64,000 nt of DNA from a virus (Duplodnaviria > Heunggongvirae > Uroviricota > Caudoviricetes). Under the pieces are notes generated by a model, which did not search any database, was not told where the DNA came from, and saw only the letters and a program-made list of their open reading frames with translations. Below are positions 3,502 through 40,618 of this stretch, piece after piece. Position 1 is the stretch's first letter, and each line of letters starts with the position of its first letter. The stretch spans positions 1 through 64,000 of the IMG/VR virus record IMGVR_UViG_2675903675_000001. One strand, written 5' to 3'. The position numbers and the translations under genes are program-made.

Positions 3502-3527
3502 AAGGCGCTTATTTAGCGCCTTTTTTA
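3502..3527 (+). terminator. rho-independent terminator
   Basis: aaggcgct-tattt-agcgcctt followed by T6. Confidence 0.7.
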
Positions 3528-20302: not shown

Positions 20303-20397
20303 CCAAAGCCTACCCATTCCACTTCCTCGCCTTGTTAAACACATCATAATAAACGCATCAAACAAAATGTTAACGAACAAGCAAAAGGAAAAAGAAA

Positions 20398-26700: not shown

Positions 26701-26851
26701 ACTCATACCCTTGATTACGTAAATCCTGAATCAGTTCGCATTCTAAATCTGCTTCACTTTGATAGCGGTCATTCTCATCCCACTCAGTCACGTATTTATC
26801 CAGCACAATAAAGTTATTGGATTCGGCAATGGTTTTTATTTGCTGCGTCAT
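23729..26851 (-). CDS. hsdR: Type I restriction enzyme, restriction subunit HsdR
   Basis: 1040 aa; SF2 helicase motifs '[12 protein letters not shown]' (I), '[10 protein letters not shown]' (II, DEAH-type), 'FGFTGTP' (III); size and order typical of HsdR. Confidence 0.9.
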
Positions 26852-26929
26852 ACGGCTCCCTGCTTTTTCATTCTGTTGTGCTGAATGCCGGTAAAACCGG
26901 CATAACAGACGTTATCAGGCGGTCATGTG

Positions 26930-28140
<1,211 letters not shown>

Positions 28141-28144
<4 letters not shown>

Positions 28145-29697
28145 ACCTGCACCTCGCTGCTTTCAATTTCTGCCACTATCGCATCGATATCTGTACGTAG
28201 CTGGTCAATTCTGGCAACTGTCTTTTTCAACTCAGCATTCAGTTCAGTAATGTTAACGATTTCGCGGGTGTCTTCGGCTACCACATAGCTACTGACTGAC
28301 AGGTTATAGTCATTGGCAGCTACAGCTTCAGACGTGACAGATTTTGCTAGATAGTCTGTATCTTCTTTGCTGTCGAAGACCTGCATGATTTGTGCGATTT
28401 GTTCATCCGTCAGGACGTTGTTATTGGTCTCTTTTTTGAATAAGCCGCTGGCATCAATAAACTGCACGTTCGTATCTGTTTTATGCTTTGACAGCACCAG
28501 AATATTCACGGCAATGGTTGTTCCGAAGAACAGGTTAGGCGCTAAAGAAATCACCGTTTCAACATAGTTATTATCAACCAAATATTGCCGAATTTTTTGC
28601 TCTGCACCACCACGGTAGAAAATCCCCGGAAAACAGACTATTGCCGCACGTCCCTTGGATGACAGATAATTTAGTGCATGGAGGACAAACGCAAAATCCG
28701 CTTTTGATTTTGGTGCCAACACCCCCGCTGGGGCGAAGCGATCATCATTAATCAGTGTCGGGTCATCACTGCCAATCCATTTCACCGAATAAGGTGGATT
28801 AGACACAATCGCATCAAACGGCTTGTCATCCTTAAATTCAGGTGCAAGTAAGGTGTTGCCCAGTTTAATGTTGAATTTATCGTAGTTGATGTTGTGCAGG
28901 AACATGTTCATACGCGCAAGGTTAAAGGTCGTATGATTAATCTCCTGACCAAAGAAGCCGTCTTCGATGATGTGATTATCAAAGTGTTTTTTCGCCTGAA
29001 GCAGCAGTGAACCGGAACCACAGGCAGGGTCATAGATTTTATTCACGTGAGTCTGACCGTGCATAGCCAACTGAGCAATCAGTTTTGACACATGCTGAGG
29101 TGTAAAGAACTCACCGCCTGACTTACCGGCATTGGCTGCATAATTAGAAATCAGAAACTCATACGCATCGCCGAACAGGTCTATTTGATGCTCGATAAAG
29201 TTACCGAGCTTTAATCCCTCCACGCCTTTCAGCACAGCGGCAAGCCGGATGTTTTTATCTTTGACGGTGCTTCCCAGTCGATTACTGGTGGTATCAAAAT
29301 CGGCGAACAAGCCTTTGATATCCGGTTCAGATGGGAAGCCAGACGCAGAGCTTTCAATTGCCACAAAAATACTGTTTAAATCTGCGTTTAGTCGGTCATT
29401 GGTGTTCGCTTTAGCCGCCACATTGCAAAACAGTTGACTCGGATAAATAAAATACCCTTTCGTTCTGACAGCATCTTCTTTGATATCGTTAGTGATTATA
29501 CTGTCATCAAGCGCCGCATACCGGATACTGTCATCACCGGCTTCAATGTAATTAGCGAAGTTTTCACTGATAAATCGGTAAAACAGCGCCCCAAGAACAT
29601 ATTGCTTAAAGTCCCATCCATCCACTGAACCTCGGACATCGTTAGCTATTGCCCATATCTGGCGGTGTAGTTCTGCTCGCTGTTGTAAACTTGTCAT
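28141..29697 (-). CDS. hsdM: Type I restriction-modification N6-adenine DNA methyltransferase HsdM
   Basis: 518 aa; motif I '[12 protein letters not shown]', motif IV 'NPPYSVKW'; N-terminal HsdM_N-like helical domain. Confidence 0.9.
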
Positions 29698-31359: not shown

Positions 31360-33051
31360 ATGGGCACTTTAGTTGCTTCCACCGCTGATTTACTGTTCCA
31401 ACAAAACGATGTGGCTTTCCGTGAGGAAGTTAATCAAATCAGAAGCGTGATTGCCGAGTATCAACGTGAAGAAGCTGAACGTGAAATGCTTCATAAAATC
31501 TTATTTTCTGGTGATCGAGTTTCTAAGATTAATCAGTTATTAGATGAAGCATCAAAACCTGGTGAAAGAAATTCAGGTTTTTACCGATTACCCAATCAAA
31601 TTGACTTCGATTATGTTCGTTCAAATTTAAGAGCGCAGTATTGGCAAAAGGTTGTCGATATGACAAACGTTCTTCAACTAATGCCAGCAAACCGTCGTGA
31701 GCAGTGGAGAAGCCAATTCATTGAAGGCAAAATGACGCTGGATAATCCGCTAGAACATGGTAAACGTCGCGTTACAGGTGATTATGTTGGTGTGCCTGAG
31801 TTTAATGAGAATACGGTAGTTCCAACGCTTTTAGGTTTGCTAAACGACAGAAACATGTATTTGAATGAGCGTGTTTATAATGTGTTCAGCGTTCTAAGCC
31901 CTAAGCACAAAACTAATAAAAGCTATGGCTTTTCTGAAAAATTGATTGTCGCCGACGTGGTATCACAGTTTTGGGGCAACAGCGTTTGGCTGAATACCTA
32001 TCGAGAAGACAACATTGACGATCTAAGAATGACATTGCGGTTCTTCGCTCACGGTAGATTTGGTCGCGTTCAGAGTTTGAAGGATGTGTTGAGTAAAGTA
32101 TACACGGACGGTAATGTTGGAAAGTGGGCTTCAATTGACGGCAATGTGATGCGTGTGAAGATGTTTAAGAATGGCAATTTACATATTGAAATTCACCCTG
32201 ACGTTGCATGGCGGCTCAACGAAGTGCTGGCGGCATCATTACCGTACGCAATCCCATCCGAATTTAGAAGTGTACCTAATTCACGTTCAGCGGTGAAAGA
32301 TTTTGGGGAAATTATCCATATCTTAGATGAAGATATGATATCGCTAATCGCCAACACCTACATAGATAAGAAAACAGGCAAATACAAGTGTTTGGATAAC
32401 AACTGGAACCGCCACAAAGCATCACATAAAGAATATAATTCGATTATGCAAAAGTTAGGAGGCGAGTTCGATCCTGAGATTAAATCATGGTCATTTAGTT
32501 ATGATTTTGATTGTGTGAGAGGTTACATTGTCGAAAATCGTTCAATGCCAGATCAGAAAAGTTACCAGTTCTACCCTACACCGGAGACTATTCAAGTTTA
32601 CGTTTCGGATTTAATCACGTTACAGGACGACGAAACCCTATTAGAGCCATCAGCAGGACGGGGTGACTTGATTTCACCAATAAACCAACCAGAGCAAACA
32701 ACGTGTATTGAGCTTTCCCCTTTGTTCTGCCAGATATTAAAGTCAAAAGGGTATGAGTCAATCAATGAAGACTTTTTGAAATGGTCGAGTAATAACGAAG
32801 GCGTTTATTTTGATAAAATAGCCATGAACCCACCTTACTCAGAAGGTAGAGCAAAGGTCCATGTGAAAGCGGCAATCAGTCATTTAAAATCAGGTGGTCG
32901 TTGTGTTGCGGTTGTACCCGGAAGTGAGCGTATGGATTGGGTTGATAAGTCGCTATACTCGGTTGAGGACTGCGCCACGTTCAGTAATGAATTTGAAGAC
33001 ACAGGCGTAACAGTGAAAGTATTTACGATAGATAAGCGTCGGAAATTATAG
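31360..33051 (+). CDS. 563-aa protein with a C-terminal gamma-class-like SAM methyltransferase domain (motif X 'FYPTP', motif I 'LLEPSAGRGDL', motif IV 'NPPY'); the N-terminal 400 aa are unknown
   Basis: Motif order X-I-IV within residues about 405-500 as in gamma-type N6-adenine/N4-cytosine MTases; only about 50 aa follow NPPY, so no C-terminal TRD. Confidence 0.6.
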   Translation: MGTLVASTADLLFQQNDVAFREEVNQIRSVIAEYQREEAEREMLHKILFSGDRVSKINQLLDEASKPGERNSGFYRLPNQIDFDYVRSNLRAQYWQKVVDMTNVLQLMPANRREQWRSQFIEGKMTLDNPLEHGKRRVTGDYVGVPEFNENTVVPTLLGLLNDRNMYLNERVYNVFSVLSPKHKTNKSYGFSEKLIVADVVSQFWGNSVWLNTYREDNIDDLRMTLRFFAHGRFGRVQSLKDVLSKVYTDGNVGKWASIDGNVMRVKMFKNGNLHIEIHPDVAWRLNEVLAASLPYAIPSEFRSVPNSRSAVKDFGEIIHILDEDMISLIANTYIDKKTGKYKCLDNNWNRHKASHKEYNSIMQKLGGEFDPEIKSWSFSYDFDCVRGYIVENRSMPDQKSYQFYPTPETIQVYVSDLITLQDDETLLEPSAGRGDLISPINQPEQTTCIELSPLFCQILKSKGYESINEDFLKWSSNNEGVYFDKIAMNPPYSEGRAKVHVKAAISHLKSGGRCVAVVPGSERMDWVDKSLYSVEDCATFSNEFEDTGVTVKVFTIDKRRKL

Positions 33052-33339
33052 AGCGAAATAGCCACGTCAAAGGTGTTGACGTAAAATCTGTCATATTGAC
33101 GTTTTCTATAAGTGCGAATTGACTATCATTTTAAGCCTCTTTTTGAGGTTTTTTTGTTAATTAAATCAAGTAGTTGAGTATGTGTAAGAGTGCGAAAGCC
33201 TAGATCAACGTAAAGTCAACGAAAAAGTGACTTTTGAAGAGCAAAAAGTTGATCTATTTACAAACCAATTCTTACACAATTAAAACCAGAATTGGAGGCT
33301 CAGCGAACAAACAAATTAAATAGAATAAATCTAAAACGC

Positions 33340-34060
33340 CACCCAAAGATGACCCAACAAATCCACCCTAAATTCATTCCTGAACATTGCGGAATATCAA
33401 CCAACCAAAGAACCCAAAGAGCAGCCCAAAGCAAACCGCAAATAACAACCCACCTAACTACACCAGGTTAAATGACCCACCTAATATCCAAAGGCAACCA
33501 ACCAAAGTTTCCAAGGCGATTAACACTCCGCAAGAAAAACCTAGAAGAGACAAACAATCAATAAATCCCAATACGTCACCACCAACAGTAACAACAACTA
33601 AGAGTGAACGAAAACAAAGGGAAAGCCCACACGTCAACCATCACAGCAAGGAATAAGCCATAGATAAACAATCCCACTAAGCAAACCGCAAAGATAACTA
33701 AATAATACAATTTCCCAATACGTCATCACTAACAGCAATAAGAAAACAAGAGAAGCAACCAAACAACCACAGCAAGCAATAACCCAATAGAACACCCATA
33801 GAGACAACCAACAATCAAACGCAGATACAAGCCATTACAGGAAGCATTACACGCAATACATTAAAAGCAACCCCATAGGAAGAACCGCAGTAAAGAACGA
33901 AAGTAACCTCGTAGGAAGATAAGCAGTAAGACAGCGGATATTGTTATAGGAAATACAGCCCTTAAAACGGAGACAGTTGAACGTTTAAGACAGCAAATAT
34001 TCAGAGGAGTAAGTCAGGAAGGTAGGACAGAAGATAAGTTAGGAAGTATAAGGCGGTAAA
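33340..34060 (+). other. T-depleted noncoding block: about 450 nt A+C-rich (33400-33840), then about 220 nt A+G-rich (33840-34060); no ORF on either strand
   Basis: Hand counts give 4-12 T per 60 nt, about 10-13% against about 30% elsewhere; G is also very low in the first part; nine GGA/AGGA motifs in the purine-rich part. Confidence 0.8.
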
Positions 34061-34069
34061 AAGTGAAGC

Positions 34070-34450
34070 GGGCGCGTTCAATCGCCGTATTTATCGGTCA
34101 TATCATTAGCCTTTACCTCAGCCAGCCGACGGGAAGCTCCCTACGGTTGGAAACGGGAAACGGCGGCGAATTCCCTTCGGTCGGCTTCGGGAAACGGCGA
34201 GCAATCGGTACTATGGAAAAACGTGTCGGCGGAAAGTTGTCCCGAGAAAATCGGTAGAGATGAGAAATTCTGATTAGCGGCAAATTCACCGCTAGACAAT
34301 AAGGGAGAAGTGGCTTGTTTGCATCAAGCGCCTAGCAGCACATTCACATACCATATTATACACGACCCTCAGAGGGTGGAGTAACGAAATAAGTCGGTCT
34401 TGGTTCCCCTTCGGCTACCTTCGGTTACCGTCGGTTCAATTTAACCTAAC
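34070..34450 (+). ncRNA. GC-rich, UUCG-tetraloop-rich candidate structured RNA/DNA element
   Basis: At least four local hairpins with cTTCGg loops (e.g. 'cccttcggtcggcttcggg', 'ccccttcggctaccttcggttaccgtcgg') and the motif TTCGGGAAACGG, which also appears in each 33-bp repeat at 38247-38399. Confidence 0.3.
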
Positions 34451-34452
34451 TT

Positions 34453-34560
34453 TGCCTGTTGATAGTTCTCTACGCCTTGTTGATTTAATTTCCTGCCTAT
34501 TTGAATGCTTCATAATTATCTCATCGAAACAAAAACAACGAATTTAAAATTAAGGATTTC
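34453..34560 (+). promoter_or_regulatory. promoter/leader module P2 (copy 1), duplicated at 34932-35040
   Basis: About 95-nt near-identical block 'gcctgttgatagtt...cataattatctcatcgaaacaaaaacaacgaattYaaa' followed by an AAGGA RBS. Confidence 0.6.
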
Positions 34561-34562
34561 AC

Positions 34563-34814
34563 ATGAGTAAATTAATTAACTGTCGTACAGCACGTTTATA
34601 TCAAGCAGGTCATGAGTTGGACGAAGCGGTAAAGCGTGGCGCAAATGCCAACTTATTTATGCAATATGACGAAAAGTACAAAGGTGGCTCAATTCCCTAT
34701 CATGACCTGTATGGAACAACACCAACTAAGCCGTATAGCTGTGAATATCATACAGGCGGTCGTATGGGGGAGCAGTTGAGACAAGGGGCAAGTAGTAGAC
34801 GAGATCATCAGTAA
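34563..34814 (+). CDS. hypothetical small protein (83 aa)
   Basis: RBS 'aaggatttcacATG'; own promoter module and own terminator. Confidence 0.55.
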   Translation: MSKLINCRTARLYQAGHELDEAVKRGANANLFMQYDEKYKGGSIPYHDLYGTTPTKPYSCEYHTGGRMGEQLRQGASSRRDHQ

Positions 34815-34848
34815 ATAATTTTAGATGCGCCTTGTATCAGGGAAACAG

Positions 34849-34873
34849 AGTGGACTTCGGTCCACTTTTTTTA
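34849..34873 (+). terminator. UUCG-tetraloop rho-independent terminator (module T, copy 1)
   Basis: agtggac-ttcg-gtccact followed by T7; the whole block 34818-34875 is duplicated at 35806-35865. Confidence 0.8.
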
Positions 34874-35040
34874 ATTGCGCTAACCTTCGACAATAACATC
34901 GATAAGAAAACAATTTCATTGTGATAAATTTGCCTGTTGATAGTTTTCTTCGCCTTTCTTATTTAGTTCTACGCCTACTTGATTCCGTCATAATTATCTC
35001 ATCGAAACAAAAACAACGAATTCAAATAAAGGATCACAAG

Positions 35041-35802
35041 ATGGAATTTTTATACGGCATTGATCAAAAAACTAAAGAACGTTTTGTTATTATCGGTTAT
35101 CAGTGTGATTTGAGTTCTAGTGACGACAAAGAGCAAAAAACACTTAGCCAATACAACAAAGTATTATCGAAGATTAATAGCATTGAAAGTCCAGCGGTTG
35201 GCAAAGATGCGATGTTATTGATTAGCAAAAACAGGAATGAGGCATCAGAAAAGGTAGATAAATTATTCAACAAGCTGTTTTCCGGCATTAATGATGAATT
35301 GGACTTTGAGAAAGCAAAAGAAAAATTAGTCGGGACAAAAAATGGTAGACGTTGGAAAAAAGCTCATGAGGGAATGATAGCCAGTTTTAACAAATCTACA
35401 GACGCGGCTAGTATAGGTGGAAAGAGACAAATTGCGGATTGGAATAAGCTAGAAAAAAGAGCTAAAAAAATAATAAACGGAGCTAATTGCAAATCTGTTA
35501 ATGCGGCCATAATTGCAAAATTTGAGCGTGACGACAGTTTAAGGGTTTTGTTTGTAGATGAACAAATGATTTCAGATTTTTACCACTCTCACAACAGAGT
35601 CCCAGATTTTAAAAATTTGTTATGTGAAGGGTTGTTAGTTGAAGATGCTTTTTTATGTTGTCAGCCAAGGTTTGGGAAGTACAACTTTGATGTGAATTTA
35701 AGTCACTCGTCGGGCGGTGTTGTGAAAAACAAAGTGACAGTTCATTTTCTTCATGGTGAGTCTTACATTGATGACAACGGCTGCATTCAAGTAGGTGGTT
35801 GA
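35041..35802 (+). CDS. hypothetical protein (253 aa)
   Basis: ATG 35041 preceded by the duplicated leader and AAGGA; the upstream part of the track ORF is the promoter duplicate and is not coding. Confidence 0.55.
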   Translation: MEFLYGIDQKTKERFVIIGYQCDLSSSDDKEQKTLSQYNKVLSKINSIESPAVGKDAMLLISKNRNEASEKVDKLFNKLFSGINDELDFEKAKEKLVGTKNGRRWKKAHEGMIASFNKSTDAASIGGKRQIADWNKLEKRAKKIINGANCKSVNAAIIAKFERDDSLRVLFVDEQMISDFYHSHNRVPDFKNLLCEGLLVEDAFLCCQPRFGKYNFDVNLSHSSGGVVKNKVTVHFLHGESYIDDNGCIQVGG

Positions 35803-35836
35803 TAGATTTTAGATGCGTCTTGCATCAGAGAAACAG

Positions 35837-35861
35837 AGTGGGCTTCGGCTCACTTTTTTTA
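35837..35861 (+). terminator. UUCG-tetraloop rho-independent terminator (module T, copy 2)
   Basis: agtgggc-ttcg-gctcact followed by T8. Confidence 0.8.
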
Positions 35862-35969
35862 ATTGAGTCAACCGACGGGAATAACATCGATAAGAAAACA
35901 ATTTCATTGTGATAAATTTACCGTTAAGATATCGGCGTTATTTACACAATCATCGATAAGGAAATCGAT

Positions 35970-36407
35970 ATGCCTATTTTCAAAAAAGAAAACGTTAAAA
36001 TCGACCTCTACTACGCTTCCGGTAAACACGAAGAAAGCGGCAGTAAAGTTGCAGAGGCGACTATCCTCATTAACAACCGCGAAGACAATACTGAAATTGC
36101 GGCAATCACTCTTCGTCGTGCAACTGACAAGGCTCGTAAACAAACCTACGGCATGGGTTCTGTTCGCATGGAATTCGGGGCTGATAAATTTACAAACGCC
36201 GTCCATCAGCATTTCTGCGCCGATATTGAGAAACGCTTCAAGGAAGTGATGAGTGAGGTGAATGATTTCTTCGAGAGCGGTTTGGACAGTTCTACTTGGA
36301 TCGGAGCTTTCGGTTTGAAAATCTTCTCAGATGCCGAAGCTGGCGCTCTTCTCCCCGAGTCGGTGATTAATCTGCTTACCGATGGCACGGCGGAAGTAAC
36401 CGAATAA
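35970..36407 (+). CDS. hypothetical protein (145 aa)
   Basis: RBS 'aaggaaatcgatATG'; preceded by module P1 (caataacatcgataagaaaacaatttcattgtgataaattt), which is also present at 34891-34931. Confidence 0.55.
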   Translation: MPIFKKENVKIDLYYASGKHEESGSKVAEATILINNREDNTEIAAITLRRATDKARKQTYGMGSVRMEFGADKFTNAVHQHFCADIEKRFKEVMSEVNDFFESGLDSSTWIGAFGLKIFSDAEAGALLPESVINLLTDGTAEVTE

Positions 36408-36431
36408 CACCTGCGGTTCCCGAAGGTCTAA

Positions 36432-36460
36432 AGCGCGGTCTTGCACACTGCGCTTTTTTA
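36432..36460 (+). terminator. rho-independent terminator
   Basis: agcgc-13-nt loop-gcgct followed by T6. Confidence 0.5.
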
Positions 36461-36550
36461 TTTGTGCCCTTTCGTTAATCCTTTTGTGCCTATCTGCTGG
36501 TGGCAAAATACATCCATCAAAACGAGAAACATAAATAAAAGGATTACAGT

Positions 36551-36871
36551 ATGAGCAACGAATTAACCACCACCATTAACACAATCTTTCCTGATGACTG
36601 TCGTGAAATTGAAGTAGGCGAAAGGTTGCTTCATGTGGAGATTGGCAAATCTTTATTTGAACTGGTGGAGGAAGAAGTTTACCGCAAAAACAGTAATGAA
36701 CTGATTGATTCACGGATAGCCATGATCCGCAAAAACTGGAATGGCAGAAGTTACACAACTTCAACGGTAAGACATTTTCCACAAAGCCAACGTGACCAAG
36801 CGATTAATGAGTTTTTGGCGGTAACACAATGGGCGTTAGTGGAAGCGGCACAACAAAAGTTGTCGAAATAA
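36551..36871 (+). CDS. hypothetical protein (106 aa)
   Basis: RBS 'aaggattacagtATG'; upstream 'ctatctgctggtggcaaaatacatc' is shared with the promoter of the 37799 gene. Confidence 0.55.
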   Translation: MSNELTTTINTIFPDDCREIEVGERLLHVEIGKSLFELVEEEVYRKNSNELIDSRIAMIRKNWNGRSYTTSTVRHFPQSQRDQAINEFLAVTQWALVEAAQQKLSK

Positions 36872-36974
36872 CCGAATTAACGTGGGTGACACTGGACGTC
36901 GCTCATTGAAGAATTTGTAATGCTGTGAAATAACAGGGACGTCCTTTAAGATATTCATTCCCGACCAATTGGTC

Positions 36975-36999
36975 TGCCATCTTCGGGTGGCTTTTTTTT
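36975..36999 (+). terminator. rho-independent terminator (UUCG loop)
   Basis: tgccatc-ttcg-ggtggc followed by T8. Confidence 0.5.
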
Positions 37000-37159
37000 G
37001 GTTAATATCCGCCGAAGGGTAAATAAACACAATGCCTAGCTCCCATAGTATTTAATAGATTTATTTCAATCCCGTTGGTAAAAACTATTTCGCCTTTTCC
37101 TACATGTAATAATTACTTCATTAAGAAATACAACTAAACAAATTAATGGAGTAAACAGT

Positions 37160-37534
37160 ATGAGCAATATCGTTAAGAAATTCGAAAAGGCAATTGTAGC
37201 TTGTTTTAGTGACGCTAAGGTGACGGTTGTTTTCCCGTTCAACGATAAAATTCGCCGTTCTAAAAATCTTGATTTTGATCTATCTTATCAAACTTCCAGT
37301 GAGCTAATTGCGGTTGCAGAAGAACGCGGGGTAAAATTGTCGGTAGATGATATTGTTCATCTCGTTAACTGTCGGATCTCTCACGTCTCTTCTATTTATC
37401 AAGATGTTGAGATTGAGGATGTTGAGCTAAAGCTCAGGGACGGGTCAACTAAACTAACTCGCACTCTCAGAACGCCTAGTATGACTTTAAGTAATTATGA
37501 TCGCAGTCATATTCGCATTTTGAGTGGCGCGTAA
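37160..37534 (+). CDS. hypothetical protein (124 aa)
   Basis: Leader 'cattaagaaatacaactaaacaaattaatggagtaaacagtATG' is nearly identical to the leader of the 37799 gene. Confidence 0.55.
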   Translation: MSNIVKKFEKAIVACFSDAKVTVVFPFNDKIRRSKNLDFDLSYQTSSELIAVAEERGVKLSVDDIVHLVNCRISHVSSIYQDVEIEDVELKLRDGSTKLTRTLRTPSMTLSNYDRSHIRILSGA

Positions 37535-37562
37535 CTCTCAGCTTAAACACCAGCCAACACAA

Positions 37563-37582
37563 AGCGGCTAACGCCGCTTTTC
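37563..37582 (+). terminator. rho-independent terminator
   Basis: agcggc-taac-gccgct followed by tttt. Confidence 0.5.
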
Positions 37583-37584
37583 AA

Positions 37585-37656
37585 CCCACCTCTTTTAATC
37601 AGGCAAACAACCCACCTCTTTTAATCAGGCAAACAGCCCACCTCTTTTTATCAGGC
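37585..37656. repeat. 24-bp tandem direct repeat x3 (caacccacctcttttaatcaggcaaa)
   Basis: Units at 37585-37608 and 37609-37632 are identical; 37633-37656 has 4 mismatches. Confidence 0.85.
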
Positions 37657-37798
37657 GTTTAATCTAGAAGCCGTAGGTAGCCTAAGATGTGGTGAATATA
37701 ATCTCAAGACCCGTCAATCATTACTTTTTGCCCTATCTGCTGGTGGCATAATTACATCATTAAGAAAAACAACTAAATAAATTAATGGAGCAAACAAT

Positions 37799-38104
37799 AT
37801 GCGACCTAATGCCTATAGCCACAGCCACGTAAACAACCTTTTTCTCGATAACGCTCAGTTAGAACGTGAGCAACTTTTGGATGCGGCAATTGAAAAGCAG
37901 ATTATAGAAAGTCGCGACAATCTTCACCGCAAGATACGATTGGCTGACCGCATTCGTAACGCCAATGATGAAACTAAACGTCCGTCTGCTTGTGAGAAGA
38001 TTACACTGGTCGCCTTTTCTCTGAACAAAGAGCCGCTGTATTCCGATGGTGAGTCGTTCTATACGCTTGATAAGCAATTCAATCGAACCCTATTTAGTCT
38101 GTAA
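37799..38104 (+). CDS. hypothetical protein (101 aa)
   Basis: Duplicated leader and RBS GGAG; promoter-like 'tgccctatctgctggtggcataattacatc' (TGn-CATAAT extended -10) upstream. Confidence 0.55.
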   Translation: MRPNAYSHSHVNNLFLDNAQLEREQLLDAAIEKQIIESRDNLHRKIRLADRIRNANDETKRPSACEKITLVAFSLNKEPLYSDGESFYTLDKQFNRTLFSL

Positions 38105-38129
38105 CGTTGTGTGTGTTGTGTGTAATTAA

Positions 38130-38157
38130 GATGCGGGGTTGCTCCCGCATCTTTTTG
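38130..38157 (+). terminator. rho-independent terminator
   Basis: gatgcggg-gttgct-cccgcatc followed by T5. Confidence 0.75.
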
Positions 38158-38246
38158 TTCCAGAGTTTGCCGTCGGTAGCCTTCGAGTGATAGCCGGACA
38201 GATTTGCGGTTTGCGTCGGGCAGCGGTTGCGCCGTCGGCTGGTGGT

Positions 38247-38399
38247 GGTTTCGGGAAACGGGTAGAAAAGGCAATGGTAGGTTTCGGGAAACGGGTAGAA
38301 AAGGCAATGGTAGGTTTCGGGAAACGGGTAGAAAAGGCAATGGTAGGTTTCGGGAAACGGGTAGAAACGGCAGTTGTCGGTTTCGGGAAACGGGGCGAG
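38247..38399. repeat. 33-bp tandem direct repeat, about 4.6 copies (ggtttcgggaaacgggtagaaaaggcaatggta)
   Basis: Copies at 38247, 38280 and 38313 are identical; 38346 is diverged; a partial unit at 38379; no intervening spacers. Confidence 0.9.
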
Positions 38400-38439
38400 T
38401 TTCGCCTCATGCGAACGATGAGGAAAGTTAAATGAGACT

Positions 38440-38550
38440 GATTGTTATTTGATGGATTATCTCATTTGAGGGTTGCCCTTGTTTGATGACTATTCTCATT
38501 TGAGAACCGTCCTTATTTGAGAACCTCCCTTATTTGAGAATTAATCTCAA
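38440..38550. repeat. cluster of 5 degenerate [T]ATTTGAG[A] 9-mers at roughly 20-bp spacing, followed by an AT-rich stretch
   Basis: 'ctcatttgagg', 'ctcatttgagaa', 'cttatttgagaa', 'cttatttgagaa', 'tctcaatacg'-type repeats visible between 38451 and 38545. Confidence 0.6.
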
Positions 38551-38920
38551 TACGTGTTTTTCTATAGATAAACTATGGCTTAACTATCTAGCCAAACAAG
38601 CAAAATAAGAAGGTAATAAAGGGAAATACTTATTTGTTTAAACGAACTATAATCCAATTTAAGCGATTTTGTAATTAAGTAATGCAATTTATCATTTGAT
38701 TAAATAAAGTCGCTTAGAATCGCTCTGGCTGGCTCTGTTTAGTGGTGTTATGTCGTTTGATGCAAGCAATTATAACCAGCCAACGAAAATAAACGCTGTA
38801 AGCCAGTGTAAGCGCGTGAATTGTTTAAGCAGTGCAATAGTGCGAAAAGCGCAAAAAAATGATTGTGGTGTGATTGGTGGAGTATAACGCGGATTGTAGT
38901 CTAGCGGCGTGAGCGACGAA

Positions 38921-38956
38921 AAACAAATAAAAAAATCCGCTCAATTGAACGGATTC
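38921..38956 (-). terminator. rho-independent terminator for the minus-strand operon ending at 38973
   Basis: On the minus strand: hairpin aatccg-10-nt loop-cggatt followed by a T-run (A-run 38921-38935 on plus). Confidence 0.6.
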
Positions 38957-38972
38957 TATTAAATGAGATTGT

Positions 38973-39644
38973 TTATTCTGCTGCTAAATCTAACTCGGTT
39001 TGCGCTGCTTTGTCTTTTGTGAATACAGATTTTAAATATTTGACCAGCTCATTATCTGTATTTATTTTATACTCGCCATAACCTAAACTGATTTTTCCGC
39101 CAGTATATGTAACAATCCCTAAACGTTGGCATAATTTCAACGCTTGATTAGTTTGTGTAAATCCGTCATCAATATCGCGATCAATCTGTTTTTTATATTC
39201 GCCCATTCTTGCGCGATATTCGCGCATCGTAAATTTATTTTTATCCGCTTTGATAAAATCTAATGCTGCAATGATATTCGACGCGCTCATGTCTGATATA
39301 TCATAACTATAGAAACCATTAGCAACGCTTTTAATCACTAAACCAAACTTGTTTAAGCTGTAAGAATTGGCAGCAATTTCTTTTAATAAATCCATCGGAT
39401 CAGCTTTTGCGCTTTTAACTATGTAATAAAGTGCCGTCACTGATTTTTCATTCATTGAAACCAAAGAGGAAAGATTTTGAAAATATTTTGCTTTTGTCTG
39501 CGCTGCCTGCAATTCCTTTTTTTCCGCGCTTGATAATTTAGCAACATCAGATAAACGCTGTTCAACTTGCGCTAAATTATCATCAAATAAAGAAAGAGTT
39601 GATGCAACTGAAGAAACGATAAAAGATTTAGATAATTGAGCCAT
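38973..39644 (-). CDS. hypothetical protein (223 aa)
   Basis: Long minus-strand ORF with RBS; helical; no motif recognised. Confidence 0.5.
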   Translation of the reverse strand: MAQLSKSFIVSSVASTLSLFDDNLAQVEQRLSDVAKLSSAEKKELQAAQTKAKYFQNLSSLVSMNEKSVTALYYIVKSAKADPMDLLKEIAANSYSLNKFGLVIKSVANGFYSYDISDMSASNIIAALDFIKADKNKFTMREYRARMGEYKKQIDRDIDDGFTQTNQALKLCQRLGIVTYTGGKISLGYGEYKINTDNELVKYLKSVFTKDKAAQTELDLAAE

Positions 39645-40090
39645 GATGTGATCCTATTTTAAATTCGCTATATTGCGAGTGATTGTAATTTATGTTTCGT
39701 TGGCGTTGTTCGCTTTCGATGTGACACATATTATCAGTTCTTTTTTTTCTTGCAAGCGTTTTATTGAGTGGTTTATAAGTTTTTTTTGTTTCTATATGCG
39801 GTGAGAGTCTTAGAAAAAACAGTCACTTATCTGTAGGTCATCCATGAAAATATTCCCTTTTATGATCTTTAGCCTTATATATAACCCAAAGGCTAATAAG
39901 TTATCATTATATTGATGTGTATTACGTGCTTTTGGTGATTAAGATGATTAAGATAGACAGGTGAGGTGAGACTTCTGGTGATTAAGATAGGCAGGTGCTT
40001 CTGGTGCGTAAAAATAATTGCGTATTAGGTGCTGAGAGAGCCTTATATAAATTAGCCTGAACAAGTCAGGCTAACAATTAACTGTCTGCG

Positions 40091-40618
40091 TTACTCTGCT
40101 AATGATCCGTCATCTTCAAGCGGAACAATACGTTTAACCGCATCATACATAATCAAGACCTGACCTGTGGATGTGGCTATCTGCAAAGAATCTAAGTCGT
40201 GGCTAAAACTAAAGCCCTTATATATTTTTCCGCTTTTTAGAAGCACCGAAACGTCTTTCTTGGTCGCGTGGGCTTTTCTCAAAATTGGATGGAAAGTTTT
40301 AAATTTAGGTAAGGTGGATTTGTCAAAATACTGAGTTTTCGAATCCGACTCATCGAATTCTCTTCTTTCGATAACCTCAACTGTAGCAATTTCCGCCAAT
40401 AACATTCTCCTATCAGAAAAAACGACCACGCCTCTTCTGGCGTTTATCTTCACAGGGTTGGTTGTAAAAATTTCGCCGTTGAGTTTTGTTACCTTAACAG
40501 ATTTGTTTTTAGCTTTTGCTAAATTGGAAATCAGAGTTAACGCTCCACGATATATTCTTTCGTTAAATCGATTAATGCCATATGTAACATCCACCTTTGG
40601 CAATTCACTGTTAATCAT
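40091..40618 (-). CDS. hypothetical protein (175 aa)
   Basis: Minus-strand ORF; basic; no motif recognised. Confidence 0.5.
   Translation of the reverse strand: MINSELPKVDVTYGINRFNERIYRGALTLISNLAKAKNKSVKVTKLNGEIFTTNPVKINARRGVVVFSDRRMLLAEIATVEVIERREFDESDSKTQYFDKSTLPKFKTFHPILRKAHATKKDVSVLLKSGKIYKGFSFSHDLDSLQIATSTGQVLIMYDAVKRIVPLEDDGSLAE

What the first reader, a model, noticed from the sequence alone, without database searches (positions are those of the whole stretch)
34450..38160. Cassette-like array of six small unknown genes, each with its own promoter/leader and terminator, with modules duplicated between genes
Genes at 34563, 35041, 35970, 36551, 37160 and 37799 (83-253 aa, no recognisable domains) are all on the plus strand and each is followed by a hairpin terminator. 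An about 95-nt promoter-leader block is nearly identical upstream of the first two genes (34453-34560 versus 34932-35040). An about 58-nt terminator block is duplicated (34818-34875 versus 35806-35865). A 41-nt block is shared at 34891-34931 and 35879-35919. The leaders of the 37160 and 37799 genes are near-identical, and an extended -10 like promoter 'ctatctgctggtggcaWaat' precedes both the 36551 and 37799 genes. This is the signature of modular gain and shuffling of independently expressed moron-type genes, the usual home of anti-defence and host-takeover functions, inside an island that also carries a Type I R-M system.
Basis: seen in the sequence. Interest (0 to 1): 0.65.

Follow-up and report, generated by a model that had tools for sequence, protein, structure and literature searches.

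The report
Swappable small-gene array in a phage-plasmid
This is the small-gene region of an SSU5-type phage-plasmid from Moellerella, where three conserved genes alternate with two slots in which unrelated unknown genes are exchanged exactly between a shared promoter block and a shared terminator block, much like the regulatory cassettes known from T4-type phages.

Summary
There are six plus-strand ORFs, each followed by a hairpin and a U-run, and four duplicated non-coding blocks far beyond chance.

The window is an SSU5/pHCM2-type phage-plasmid of Moellerella wisconsensis. Ten related loci show that the array is not six independent morons.
- g3, g4 and g6 are a conserved, syntenic backbone.
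- g1 and g2 sit in slot A, upstream of g3. g5 sits in slot B, between g4 and g6. All three are lineage-variable ORFans.

In slot A the same promoter-leader (P) and terminator (T) modules enclose g1, g2, an unrelated 123-aa gene, or a three-codon remnant. Homology stops at the start codon and resumes just after the stop codon. Chimeric P and T modules and unit-by-unit mosaicism point to homologous recombination inside the modules. The nearest known mechanism is the PeSL cassettes of T4-type phages.

All eight Chi sites in the window are on the plus strand.

Protein functions remain unknown: there were no family, solved-structure or fold matches. The anti-defence role is unproven.

Three unexplained elements conserved across the supergroup lie in or next to the array: a T-poor stretch of about 0.8 kb, a CCCACCT…CAGG motif and an AAGAAAACAA leader motif.

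The parts
34447..34562 (+). P module copy 1. This is the promoter-leader of g1, with GCCT-N13-ATAAT (-10 CATAAT at 34511-34516), an A-rich leader and a Shine-Dalgarno sequence.
   Evidence: 84% identical over 102-107 nt to copy 2. The same module precedes g2 in L001 and L002, the unrelated gX in L003, and g1 in Providencia. Its promoter signature was found.
34563..34814 (+). g1, 83 aa. Variable slot-A cassette ORF of unknown function.
   Evidence: Present only in the window and in two Providencia elements, at 82% aa and 80% nt identity. Absent from L001-L004. GC3 is 0.35.
34818..34875 (+). T module copy 1. It has a small hairpin GATGC-N5-GYATC, then an intrinsic terminator (stem 34847-34868, UUCG loop, U7).
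   Evidence: It is 89-96% identical in Pectobacterium, Providencia and the metagenomic relative, whatever ORF precedes it. The stem shows the double change GGAC/GTCC versus GGGC/GCCC.
34876..34934 (+). B41 block copy 1, a g3-type promoter core (AATAAC ATCGATAAGAAAACAA). It is duplicated together with the T module.
   Evidence: 40 nt are identical to 35880-35919. The exact motif AAGAAAACAA lies at 34904.
34925..35040 (+). P module copy 2, the promoter-leader of g2 (-10 CATAAT at 34989-34994).
35041..35802 (+). g2, 253 aa. Variable slot-A cassette ORF and an absolute ORFan.
   Evidence: Found only in Moellerella phage-plasmids. It has one cluster among 1.84 billion representatives and two clusters in the 5.8-billion-cluster search. 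There is no PDB relative by sequence. GC is 0.36 and GC3 0.34.
35806..35863 (+). T module copy 2 (terminator stem 35835-35856, U7).
35864..35969 (+). B41 block copy 2 plus the g3 leader. This is the promoter-leader of the conserved gene g3.
   Evidence: AAGAAAACAA lies at 35892. The block is conserved upstream of g3 in L004, L005, L009, L020 and L021.
35970..36407 (+). g3, 145 aa. Conserved backbone gene of family phrog_2473 (SSU5_114, CYRAN_107, phiKO2 gp62).
36430..36462 (+). Terminator after g3.
36481..36550 (+). Promoter-leader of g4. It has GCCT-N13-AAAAT, with Chi (GCTGGTGG, 36496-36503) in the spacer and TGn directly before the -10.
   Evidence: A 37-nt stretch is 97% identical upstream of g4 in Xenorhabdus, although the g4 proteins are only 50% identical.
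36551..36871 (+). g4, 106 aa. Conserved backbone gene of unknown function.
   Evidence: Syntenic, at 50-54% aa identity, in L004, L005, L009, L020 and L021. No PDB relative. The single-sequence AF2 model is unusable, with pLDDT 50.
36976..36999 (+). Terminator after g4.
37065..37607 (+). Slot-B insertion, the g5 cassette. It comprises a promoter-leader at 37092-37159 (-10 AATAAT at 37108-37113), g5 at 37160-37534 (124 aa), and a weak terminator at about 37561-37580.
   Evidence: Present in the window and L001. Absent from L002, L003 and L025, even though L025 has a g6 identical to the window's. Its leader is a 91% copy of the g6 leader. In relatives the same slot holds HigB/HigA (L005), RelE with an HTH antitoxin (L009) or a 70-aa ORF (L021).
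37582..37659 (+). Three tandem 26-nt repeats, each carrying the motif CCCACCT-N-CAGG.
   Evidence: The motif is conserved at this position, and inside the upstream T-poor stretch, across the whole SSU5 supergroup.
37724..37798 (+). Promoter-leader of g6. It has CCCT-N13-ATAAT, with Chi at 37739-37746 and -10 CATAAT at 37747-37752.
   Evidence: The -10 and leader start (TTCATAATTACATCATTAAGAAA) are conserved upstream of g6 in L004, L005 and L020.
37799..38104 (+). g6, 101 aa. Conserved backbone gene of unknown function.
   Evidence: Syntenic, at 40-49% aa identity, in all subgroup relatives. No PDB relative.
38128..38158 (+). Terminator after g6, marking the end of the array.

Best explanation
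The segment is the small-gene, hyperplastic region that SSU5/pHCM2-type phage-plasmids carry. It lies between a DUF4942 DNA methyltransferase with a T-poor spacer on one side and, on the other, a divergently oriented pair of genes: a phrog_1513 gene and an FljA-family regulator.

It is built of six monocistronic units, each with promoter, A-rich leader, ORF and intrinsic terminator. Three units (g3, g4, g6) are a conserved backbone. Two slots hold interchangeable cargo: slot A upstream of g3 (here g1 and g2) and slot B between g4 and g6 (here g5).

In slot A, cargo ORFs are exchanged exactly from start codon to stop codon between a conserved promoter-leader module (P) and a conserved terminator-plus-next-promoter module (T-B41). 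The modules do two jobs. They supply ready-made expression signals to whatever ORF lands between them. They also supply 60-120 bp of homology at which general homologous recombination deletes, duplicates, replaces and laterally exchanges units. This is the mechanism described for the PeSL cassettes of T4-type phages. Co-oriented Chi sites embedded in two of the promoters and just beyond g6 may raise RecBCD-dependent exchange here.

Shown here: the anatomy, the conserved-versus-variable split, breakpoints at the modules in slot A, chimeric modules, and unit-wise mosaicism.

Inferred: that the promoters fire, when they fire, that Chi matters, and what the proteins do. The cargo is accessory. Relatives carry toxin-antitoxin pairs in slot B. 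An anti-defence or host-interaction role for the ORFans is plausible but untested.
For: Identity of the element:
- 93-95% nt identity to three Moellerella wisconsensis plasmids of 103-108 kb.
- The g3 family is present in SSU5, Cyrano and phiKO2.
- Phage terminase, Type I R-M and ParB-like genes lie in the same window.

Backbone versus cargo:
- g3, g4 and g6 are syntenic in Pectobacterium Drgb1, Providencia PROV236 and PROV145, Xenorhabdus hominickii and a metagenomic 109-kb contig.
- g1, g2 and g5 are patchy.
- Slot A states seen: g1+g2, g2, gX, g1, g1 plus a 348-aa gene, a 112-aa gene, and an 'empty' P + ATG GAT ATC TAA + T.
- Slot B states seen: g5, empty, HigBA, RelE with antitoxin, and a 70-aa ORF.

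Breakpoints:
- Window 33001-34557 and window 34933-40000 both align onto the single P module of L001 and L002. L003 keeps P and T but has a different ORF between them.
- P homology runs to the ATG, and T homology starts 2-6 nt after the stop codon, whatever the ORF.

Recombination footprints:
- L003 has a mosaic P module.
- L003 has a chimeric terminator stem, GTGGAC/GCCCAC, with an A.C mismatch.

Lateral exchange:
- g1 is 80% nt identical, and gX 87%, between lineages whose adjacent g3, g4 and g6 are barely alignable or not alignable at the DNA level.
- Providencia PROV145 carries a Moellerella-type g3 (78% aa) beside Providencia-type g4 (54%) and g6 (40%).
- Cargo GC3 is 0.34-0.36, against 0.42-0.49 for the backbone genes.

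Module conservation exceeds coding conservation:
- The T module is 89-96% identical across genera.
- A 37-nt stretch of the g4 promoter is 97% identical in Xenorhabdus.

Expression signals:
- Terminator hairpins fold after every gene, four of the six better than at least 97% of 200 shuffles; those after g3 and g4 are weaker by that measure (z -1.9 and -1.6).
- The shared promoter signature GCCT-N13-ATAAT occurs 9 times on the plus strand, 5 of them in the array. Shuffles gave 4.75 for both strands together.

Chi: 8 sites, all on the plus strand, against 0.82 expected. Three lie in the array's intergenic DNA.

Mechanistic precedent: PMC2839356 and PMC4122927.
Against: - No expression data exist for this element. 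The -35 regions are weak, and the generic promoter scan found fewer sigma-70-like sites than in shuffles (10 against 17.4).
- The slot-B indel is not bounded by a repeated module on its left side. The break at 37064/37065 shows no homology, so g5 gain or loss needs another event or unseen intermediates.
- Joining B41 to P copy 2 (34931/34932) also needs a non-homologous step or a circular intermediate.
- Only about ten relatives exist in the collections searched, several of them near-clonal.
- Conservation of the modules could reflect selection for common regulation rather than for recombination.
- Chi activity in Moellerella is assumed from what is known of enteric RecBCD enzymes. It was not tested.
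Confidence: 0.68

Rival explanations
1. All six genes are independently acquired moron-type genes that encode anti-defence or host-takeover functions.
For: - Each gene has its own promoter-like leader and terminator.
- g1, g2 and g5 are patchy ORFans with low GC3.
- SSU5-group elements have few recognisable anti-defence systems, so unknown ones could sit here (10.1101/2025.09.12.675607).
- The backbone genes evolve fast, at 40-54% aa identity, against 81-83% for the neighbouring methyltransferase.
Against: - g3, g4 and g6 are fixed and syntenic in every subgroup relative. g3 is family-wide in two phage-plasmid groups.
- No hit to any PADLOC, Pfam, NCBIfam or PDB family, and no fold match for g3.
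- In Cyrano lysogens, CYRAN_109 is the only gene inside the array listed at 5-fold or more above background (PMC9928086). Most array genes therefore do not meet the expression criterion for morons in that relative.
- Where slot-B cargo can be identified in relatives, it is toxin-antitoxin pairs, not anti-defence genes.
Confidence: 0.2
2. The shared blocks exist only because the genes belong to one regulon. Promoters, leaders and terminators are kept alike by selection for a common regulator, for example the adjacent FljA-family protein or a repressor of AAACAA/TTGTTT sites. The gene-content differences arose by ordinary illegitimate recombination and local tandem duplication, and the modules play no role in exchange.
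For: - The same promoter signature also precedes unrelated genes elsewhere in the window, at 3518, 6074, 20329 and 31292.
- The AAGAAAACAA motif downstream of the -10 is conserved across the whole SSU5 supergroup.
- In SSU5 and Cyrano the promoters sit inside operator-like inverted repeats.
- An FljA-family gene is always adjacent.
- The left breakpoint of slot B lacks homology.
Against: - Slot-A breakpoints coincide with the modules to the nucleotide.
- Chimeric P and T modules are seen, including a stem mismatch that selection for function would not create.
- Cassettes are shared between diverged backbones at much higher identity than their neighbours.

The two explanations are not exclusive. 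Regulation probably explains why the modules are conserved, and recombination is what that conservation permits.
Confidence: 0.2
3. The array is one early operon. It is transcribed from the conserved promoter-like box at about 33265, through the 1.1-kb T-poor leader. The hairpins are attenuators overcome by antitermination, and the internal 'promoters' are minor.
For: - A conserved block, 75-81% identical across genera, ends in a CACAAT box exactly where the T-poor stretch begins.
- No intrinsic terminator is seen between the T-poor stretch and g1.
- All genes are co-oriented.
- The stretch is C-rich, G-poor and unstructured, as Rho loading sites are (the comparison with Rho sites rests on general knowledge).
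Against: - Six strong terminators in 3.6 kb, each followed by a conserved -10 at a fixed distance from a conserved upstream box.
- The modules travel with individual ORFs.
- No antiterminator or nut/put-like RNA was detected by Rfam.
Confidence: 0.1
4. The array is a site-specific cassette system of the integron type, or the duplicates are an assembly artefact.
For: There is only a superficial resemblance: an array of small swappable ORFs with repeated flanks.
Against: - The immediate neighbours are a methyltransferase, a phrog_1513 gene and an FljA-family gene, not an integrase.
- Each ORF has its own promoter, and the flanks are promoter and terminator sequences rather than attC-type sites.
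- The repeat copies have diverged (84-91%) and recur in independent complete assemblies.
Confidence: 0.02

Closest known systems
PeSL (promoter-early stem-loop) regulatory cassettes in the hyperplastic regions of T4-type phages (Arbiol et al. 2010, PMC2839356; Comeau et al. 2014, PMC4122927)
   Same: - Repeated intergenic modules combine a sigma-70-type promoter and a terminator stem-loop.
- The modules run from the stop codon of the upstream gene to the Shine-Dalgarno sequence and start codon of the next.
- They are concentrated next to ORFans in a plastic region.
- Insertions, deletions and replacements between close relatives have their breakpoints in the modules.
- The modules give each ORF portable expression signals.
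   Different: - The host element is a temperate siphovirus-type phage-plasmid, not a lytic T4-type myovirus.
- The sequences are unrelated.
- Terminator and promoter are separate blocks on either side of the ORF in this lineage, although SSU5 and Cyrano do embed the promoter inside an inverted repeat.
- The -35 elements are weak.
- Chi sites are embedded in the promoters.
- Conserved backbone genes are interleaved with the slots.
- Mini-circles and promoter activity were shown for PeSLs and are untested here.
Morons of lambdoid and other temperate phages (the concept of Hendrix and colleagues, recalled from memory; applied operationally in PMC9928086)
   Same: g1, g2 and g5 are autonomous promoter-ORF-terminator units. 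They lie between genes that are adjacent in close relatives, and their composition is atypical.
   Different: - g3, g4 and g6 are not insertions.
- Here the flanking signals are shared, reusable modules rather than signals that arrived with each gene.
- Expression from the repressed prophage, which is part of the operational definition, is unknown. In Cyrano it was not seen for most array genes.
Small-gene arrays of SSU5, Cyrano and pHCM2-like phage-plasmids (SSU5_103-118, CYRAN_101-111)
   Same: - Same genomic position.
- Same orientation.
- Same g3 family.
- Same T-poor stretch upstream.
- Same AAGAAAACAA leader motif and CCCACCT…CAGG motif.
   Different: - Only g3 is recognisably shared at the protein level.
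- The P and T module sequences are specific to the subgroup found in Moellerella, Providencia, Pectobacterium and Xenorhabdus.
- None of the papers retrieved and read here (searches; papers read) describes these arrays as a module-swapping system.
Integron gene cassettes
   Same: An ordered array of exchangeable single ORFs.
   Different: - No integrase gene adjacent to the array.
- No attC sites seen in the flanks.
- Every unit has its own promoter and terminator.
- Exchange appears to be by general homologous recombination.

Membership tests
PeSL-type modular regulatory cassettes (functional class) | Repeated intergenic motif containing a sigma-70-like promoter immediately upstream of the Shine-Dalgarno sequence and start codon of an ORF. 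| tested here: met
   The P, B41 and g4/g5/g6 leaders share GCCT-N13-ATAAT and an A-rich leader ending at the ATG. The -10 is good and the -35 is weak. Activity was not measured.
PeSL-type modular regulatory cassettes (functional class) | A stem-loop acting as terminator or attenuator within the same intergenic module. | tested here: met
   A hairpin with a U-run follows each of the six genes. The T-module stem shows a double compensatory change. Termination itself was not measured.
PeSL-type modular regulatory cassettes (functional class) | Preferential association with ORFans in a plastic region. | tested here: met
   g1, g2, g5 and gX are lineage-restricted ORFans. The P and T module sequences occur only in this array within the window.
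PeSL-type modular regulatory cassettes (functional class) | Indel and replacement breakpoints between close relatives fall inside the modules. | tested here: met
   Met exactly for slot A. Met only partly for slot B: the right side falls in a repeat tract and the left side has no homology.
PeSL-type modular regulatory cassettes (functional class) | Formation of circular excision products (mini-circles) by module-to-module recombination. | not testable with these tools
   This needs outward-facing PCR or long-read sequencing of phage and plasmid DNA.
PeSL family in the strict sense (homologous elements of T4-type myoviruses) | Element resides in a T4-type phage genome and shares the PeSL sequence consensus. 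| tested here: not met
   The host element is an SSU5-type phage-plasmid. The sequences differ, and there is no consensus -35. It is therefore an analogue, not a member.
Moron | Autonomous unit with its own promoter and terminator, inserted between genes that are adjacent in related phages. | tested here: met
   Met for g1, g2 and g5. Not met for g3, g4 and g6, which are themselves the conserved neighbours.
Moron | Expressed from the repressed prophage or plasmid state. | not testable with these tools
   There are no transcriptome data for this element. In Cyrano, Table 1 lists CYRAN_109 within the array and CYRAN_102 upstream of the T-poor stretch at 5-fold or more above background. The g3 homologue CYRAN_107 is not listed (PMC9928086).
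Known anti-defence or defence protein families | Significant match of any of the six proteins to a curated family or a solved structure. | tested here: not met
Integron cassette array | Integron integrase next to the array, and attC sites flanking promoterless ORFs. | tested here: not met
   The flanking genes are a DUF4942 methyltransferase, a phrog_1513 gene and an FljA-family gene. The flanks are promoter and terminator modules. No dedicated attC model was run.

The most novel reading that the evidence does not exclude
The array, the conserved T-poor stretch upstream of it and the adjacent FljA-family gene may form one post-transcriptional expression platform common to all SSU5-type phage-plasmids.
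- The T-poor stretch would be transcribed into an unstructured A/C-rich RNA of about 0.8 kb.
- It carries the same AAGAAAACAA and CCCACCT…CAGG motifs as the gene leaders.
- It would act as a decoy or loading platform for an RNA-binding regulator (the FljA-like protein, Hfq or Rho), which sets when the swappable genes are translated.
- Any ORF dropped between P and T would inherit that control.
- The co-oriented Chi sites would make the platform a programmed recombination hotspot.
Probability: 0.08. Interest if true: 0.75.

Novelty: new variant of a known kind. Interest (0 to 1): 0.5.

Why it matters
Phage-plasmids of the SSU5 group are common in enteric pathogens. One survey finds very few recognisable anti-defence systems in them.

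This analysis shows where they keep their fastest-changing small genes. It gives a concrete, testable rule for how those genes are swapped: an ORF-precise exchange between reusable promoter and terminator modules, as in T4-type PeSLs, but in a temperate plasmid-like phage.

That rule has three uses:
- It defines the cargo slots to mine for new host-interaction genes.
- It gives natural "landing pads" for engineering.
- It extends PeSL-type modular shuffling beyond lytic myoviruses.

The conserved T-poor stretch and the two supergroup-wide motifs are unexplained cis elements that deserve experiments.

Tried and rejected
Searches that found nothing useful:
- Family searches of all six proteins against Pfam, NCBIfam, PADLOC and PHROGs. 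The only hit was g3 to phrog_2473, function unknown.
- PDB sequence and profile searches for g2, g3, g4 and g6.
- The single-sequence AF2 model of g4 is unusable, with pLDDT 50.
- An exhaustive HMMER search with g2 found only itself.
- Rfam at a permissive threshold, and tRNA search over 30-42 kb, gave nothing credible.
- Pattern scans of viral contigs for the T module gave 0 hits. The B41 core gave 3 hits with no similarity to the array DNA or its proteins.
- The metagenome scan gave one true relative, L020.
- blastn against the phage collection found nothing.

Ideas considered and dropped:
- A sigma-28 (FliA) promoter reading of the SSU5 'GCGATAAT' boxes. There is no TAAA at the required distance (by inspection).
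- A resemblance between CCCAATACGT in the T-poor stretch and my recollection of the fliC 5' leader. A 10-mer match is expected by chance, and I could not retrieve the real sequence, so I dropped it.
- An operator-like inverted repeat around the window's own P modules. None was found, unlike in SSU5 and Cyrano.
- Protein coding in the T-poor stretch. Similarity between relatives is equal in all frames.
- The 33-nt tandem repeat as a family-wide feature. It is specific to the Moellerella lineage.

Full report
**What is in the sequence**

- g1 34563-34814
- g2 35041-35802
- g3 35970-36407
- g4 36551-36871
- g5 37160-37534
- g6 37799-38104

Coding density is only 69%, with spacers of 143-288 nt. 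Every gene is followed by a hairpin and a U-run. The one after g5 has a short U-tract.

The duplicated blocks are real and far above chance. Self-alignment gives 149 bits (34818-34934 vs 35806-35922, 117 nt, 88%), 113 bits (34451-34557 vs 34929-35034, 84%), 76 bits (37109-37162 vs 37748-37801, 91%) and 44 bits (36481-36539 vs 37724-37781). The maximum in 100 shuffles was 29 bits.

The box CTATCTGCTGGTGGCAWAAT occurs exactly twice and contains the Chi octamer GCTGGTGG.

**What the element is**

The 7-kb region is 93-95% identical to three 103-108-kb non-mobilizable plasmids of Moellerella wisconsensis. It is more distantly related to Providencia pPROV236-2 and Pectobacterium Drgb1.

g3 belongs to phrog_2473. 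Its homologues lie in Salmonella phage SSU5 (SSU5_114), E. coli phage-plasmid Cyrano (CYRAN_107), many Klebsiella and E. coli SSU5-like elements, and the N15-like phiKO2 (gp62).

The window also carries a terminase, ribonucleotide reductase, ParB-like genes and a Type I R-M system. So this is an SSU5/pHCM2-type phage-plasmid.

The array sits between two landmarks:
- On one side, a DUF4942 DNA methyltransferase (31360-33051) followed by 1.4 kb of non-coding DNA.
- On the other, a divergent pair: a phrog_1513 gene (38973-39644, minus strand) and an FljA-family regulator (40091-40618, minus strand; Pfam Flag1_repress, E 2e-7).

This layout is kept in all relatives.

**Backbone and slots**

I compared the window with ten related loci:
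- L001-L003, L024 and L025, from Moellerella
- L004, Pectobacterium
- L005 and L021, Providencia
- L009, Xenorhabdus
- L020, a metagenomic contig

g3, g4 and g6 are present and syntenic in every one of them. Across genera they are 40-78% identical at the amino-acid level.

The other genes are patchy:
- g1 occurs only in the window and the two Providencia elements.
- g2 occurs only in Moellerella elements, and it has no other relative among 1.84 billion representative proteins.
- g5 occurs only in the window and L001.

The variation is confined to two slots.

Slot A, upstream of g3, holds one of the following:
- g1+g2 (window)
- g2 (L001, L002)
- an unrelated 123-aa gene, gX (L003, L024, L020)
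- g1 (L005)
- g1 plus a 348-aa gene (L021)
- a 112-aa gene (L009)
- in Drgb1, only a promoter, ATG GAT ATC TAA and the terminator: an empty cassette

Slot B, between g4 and g6, holds one of the following:
- g5 (window, L001)
- nothing (L002, L003, L004, L020, L025)
- a HigB/HigA pair (L005)
- a RelE-type toxin with an HTH antitoxin (L009)
- a 70-aa ORF (L021)

**How the cargo is exchanged**

In slot A the breakpoints coincide with the repeated modules.
- The window aligns to L001 and L002 up to the end of P copy 1, and again from the start of P copy 2. Both copies map onto their single P module.
- L003 keeps P and T but has a different ORF between them.

Multiple alignments show that P homology runs to the ATG. 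T homology begins 2-6 nt after the stop codon, whether the preceding ORF is g1, g2, gX or the three-codon remnant.

There are footprints of crossovers inside the modules:
- The P module of L003 is a mosaic of the g1-type and g2-type copies.
- The L003 terminator stem combines a g1-type left arm (GTGGAC) with a g2-type right arm (GCCCAC), which creates an A.C mismatch.

The units also move between lineages:
- g1 is 80% identical at the DNA level between Moellerella and Providencia.
- gX is 87% identical between L003 and L020.
- The adjacent g3, g4 and g6 of the same pairs are barely alignable or not alignable at the DNA level.
- Providencia PROV145 has a Moellerella-type g3 (78% aa) next to Providencia-type g4 (54%) and g6 (40%).

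Cargo genes have lower GC3 (0.34-0.36) than backbone genes (0.42-0.49).

The non-coding modules are more conserved than the genes they serve. T is 89-96% identical across genera. A 37-nt stretch of the g4 promoter, including Chi, is 97% identical in Xenorhabdus, where g4 itself is only 50% identical.

Together this matches the mechanism described for the PeSL cassettes of T4-type phages. Those are composite promoter/terminator motifs next to ORFans, which serve both as portable expression signals and as homology for recombination (PMC2839356 and PMC4122927).

Two steps do not fit simple module-to-module exchange:
- The left boundary of the g5 insertion (37064/37065) has no homology.
- The joint between B41 and P copy 2 needs a non-homologous event or a circular intermediate.

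**Expression signals**

The array promoters share a fixed architecture: GCCT-N13-(A/T)TAAT, some with TGn, followed by an A-rich leader of 40-75 nt and a Shine-Dalgarno sequence.
- In the window this signature occurs nine times on the plus strand.
- Five of these are in the array. The others lie upstream of other plus-strand genes, at 3518, 6074, 20329 and 31292.
- Shuffles gave 4.75 for both strands together.

So this is a promoter class of the element, not of the array alone.

Just downstream of the -10, a motif centred on AAGAAAACAA is conserved across the entire SSU5 supergroup.
- The exact 10-mer occurs three times in the window, all on the plus strand (33740, 34904, 35892), against 0.37 expected.
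- It occurs two to eight times per locus in the SSU5-type relatives scanned (five or more in six of the seven), nearly always on the array strand.
- In SSU5 and Cyrano it forms the right arm of 16-33-nt inverted repeats that enclose the promoter. The window's lineage lacks these and uses separate terminators instead.

None of this has been tested for activity. The -35 regions are weak, and the generic promoter scan is not enriched.

The only transcriptome available is from the distant relative Cyrano in the lysogenic state. Its Table 1 lists CYRAN_109 within the array, and CYRAN_102 upstream of the T-poor stretch, at 5-fold or more above local background. It does not list the g3 homologue (PMC9928086). 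This argues against calling the whole array morons in the operational sense.

**Chi**

The window has eight Chi octamers, all on the plus strand, against 0.82 expected. Three lie in intergenic DNA of the array:
- in the spacers of the g4 and g6 promoters
- just beyond g6, at 38238

Relatives also carry Chi in or next to the array, though not always in the same place or orientation.

From general knowledge of RecBCD, co-oriented Chi sites protect linear or rolling-circle DNA ends and stimulate recombination to their 5' side. For ends lying to the right of the array, that side is the array itself. This is an inference. Chi recognition in Moellerella was not tested.

**Protein function**

No function could be assigned.
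- There are no curated family hits and no PDB relatives by sequence.
- The g3 model is confident (pLDDT 84: a four-stranded sheet packed against two helices) but has no convincing structural neighbour.
- The single-sequence model of g4 is unusable.

The identifiable cargo in relatives is toxin-antitoxin modules. A recent survey found few recognisable anti-defence systems in SSU5-group elements (10.1101/2025.09.12.675607). An anti-defence role for these ORFans is therefore possible, but it is not supported by any result here.

**Things outside the finding that may belong to the same system**

- **T-poor stretch.** Directly upstream of the array lies a roughly 0.8-kb stretch with almost no T on the plus strand.
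  - 33290-33840 is A 47%, C 28%, G 12% and T 13%. A purine-rich part follows, to about 34060.
  - It is the least foldable RNA of the whole window, at -11 to -12 kcal/mol per 200 nt, against a mean of -44 with sd 9.
  - It is unique in the window.
  - The composition, not the sequence, is conserved at the same position in every relative where that position was fetched, including SSU5 and Cyrano.
  - It is non-coding, because similarity between relatives is frame-independent.
- **Conserved block.** A 190-nt block (33095-33281) precedes the T-poor stretch. It is 75-81% identical across genera and ends in a -10-like CACAAT.
- **19-nt motif.** CC(C/A)ACCT-N8-12-CAGG occurs four times in the window, against 0.29 expected. 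In all SSU5-type relatives it is found at the same two places: inside the T-poor stretch and just upstream of the last array gene.

I have no tested explanation for these elements. Candidates are a Rho or Hfq loading platform or decoy RNA, an R-loop-type origin, or binding sites for a partition or replication protein.

**Verdict**

There is modular shuffling of independently signalled genes, but on a conserved three-gene backbone. The nearest known mechanism is PeSL-type recombination, not simple moron accretion.
- The anti-defence function is unproven.

I rate this a new variant of a known kind, of moderate interest.

Noticed in passing
window 33290-34060: A T-poor (plus strand) non-coding stretch of about 0.8 kb. 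The first 550 nt are A/C-rich and the rest is purine-rich. It is the least foldable RNA in the window and the only such stretch in it. The same composition, not sequence, is found at the same position in every SSU5-type relative where that position was fetched, including SSU5 and Cyrano. Function unknown.
   Followed up: partly
window 33095-33281: A non-coding block just after the DUF4942 gene, 75-81% identical in Pectobacterium and Providencia. It contains TTGAC(G/T) direct repeats, a terminator hairpin, a GATCAAC…GTTGATC inverted repeat with GATC sites, and a CACAAT box exactly where the T-poor stretch starts. It may be a promoter or control region for a T-poor transcript.
   Followed up: partly
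window 33449; 37585, 37611, 37637 (also L006 4243-4623 and 8177; L007 4911-4972 and 8560): The motif CC(C/A)ACCT-N8-12-CAGG occurs four times in the window, against 0.29 expected. Across the SSU5 supergroup it recurs on the array strand at two fixed places: inside the T-poor stretch and upstream of the last array gene. It looks like a protein-binding site. Its partner is unknown.
   Followed up: partly
window 36496, 37739, 38238, 52820, 60446, 60857, 60875, 63969: Eight Chi octamers (GCTGGTGG), all on the plus strand, against 0.82 expected. This fits protection of linear or rolling-circle DNA from RecBCD. Three lie in intergenic DNA of the array.
   Followed up: partly
window 38243-38394 and 38445-38540: A 33-nt tandem repeat (4.6 copies here, 2-3.6 in L001-L003) contains TTCGGGAAACGG, which also occurs once at 34186 on the other side of the array. 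It is followed by 17/34-nt repeats. The 33-nt repeat was not found in the Pectobacterium, Providencia or SSU5 loci scanned for tandem repeats. It looks like iterons, but no role was tested.
   Followed up: partly
window 40091-40618 (minus strand): An FljA-family protein (Pfam Flag1_repress, E 2e-7) is conserved next to the array in all relatives. FljA-type proteins block translation of fliC mRNA (PMC2652032). It is therefore a candidate post-transcriptional regulator of the shared A-rich leaders. Untested.
   Followed up: partly
L004 6860-6990 (Pectobacterium plasmid Drgb1): An 'empty cassette': an array-type promoter, then ATG GAT ATC TAA, then the conserved T module. It is either a deletion scar or a vacant landing pad.
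   Followed up: yes
L005 10900-11700; L009 (reverse strand) about 12370-12700: Slot B of the Providencia and Xenorhabdus relatives carries type II toxin-antitoxin pairs: HigB/HigA, and RelE with an MqsA-like HTH antitoxin.
   Followed up: yes
L006 2081-2152, L007 3357-3420: In SSU5 and Cyrano the array promoters are enclosed by 16-33-nt inverted repeats (AAACAAnTTGTTTTCT … AGAAAACAAnTTGTTT). This resembles PeSL subclasses in which the stem-loop overlaps the promoter, or paired operators.
   Followed up: partly
window 3518, 6074, 20329, 31292: The same promoter signature (GCCT-N13-ATAAT and an A-rich leader) occurs outside the array. The sites at 20329 and 31292 lie directly upstream of plus-strand genes, the latter being the DUF4942 methyltransferase. 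This suggests an element-wide promoter class.
   Followed up: no
window 23729-29697 (minus strand): A complete Type I R-M system (HsdR, HsdS, HsdM) lies in a separate variable slot. L003 has it too. At that position L001 has fimbrial-usher and SPOR genes, and L002 has umuDC and a ClpP-like gene between DUF4942 and the array.
   Followed up: partly
window 34063-34257: A 64-aa GTG-start ORF lies in the GC-rich spacer between the T-poor stretch and g1. A gene of the same length (64 aa) was called at the corresponding position on a related Logan contig (L024). There is no family match and no obvious ribosome-binding site, so it is probably not a gene.
   Followed up: no
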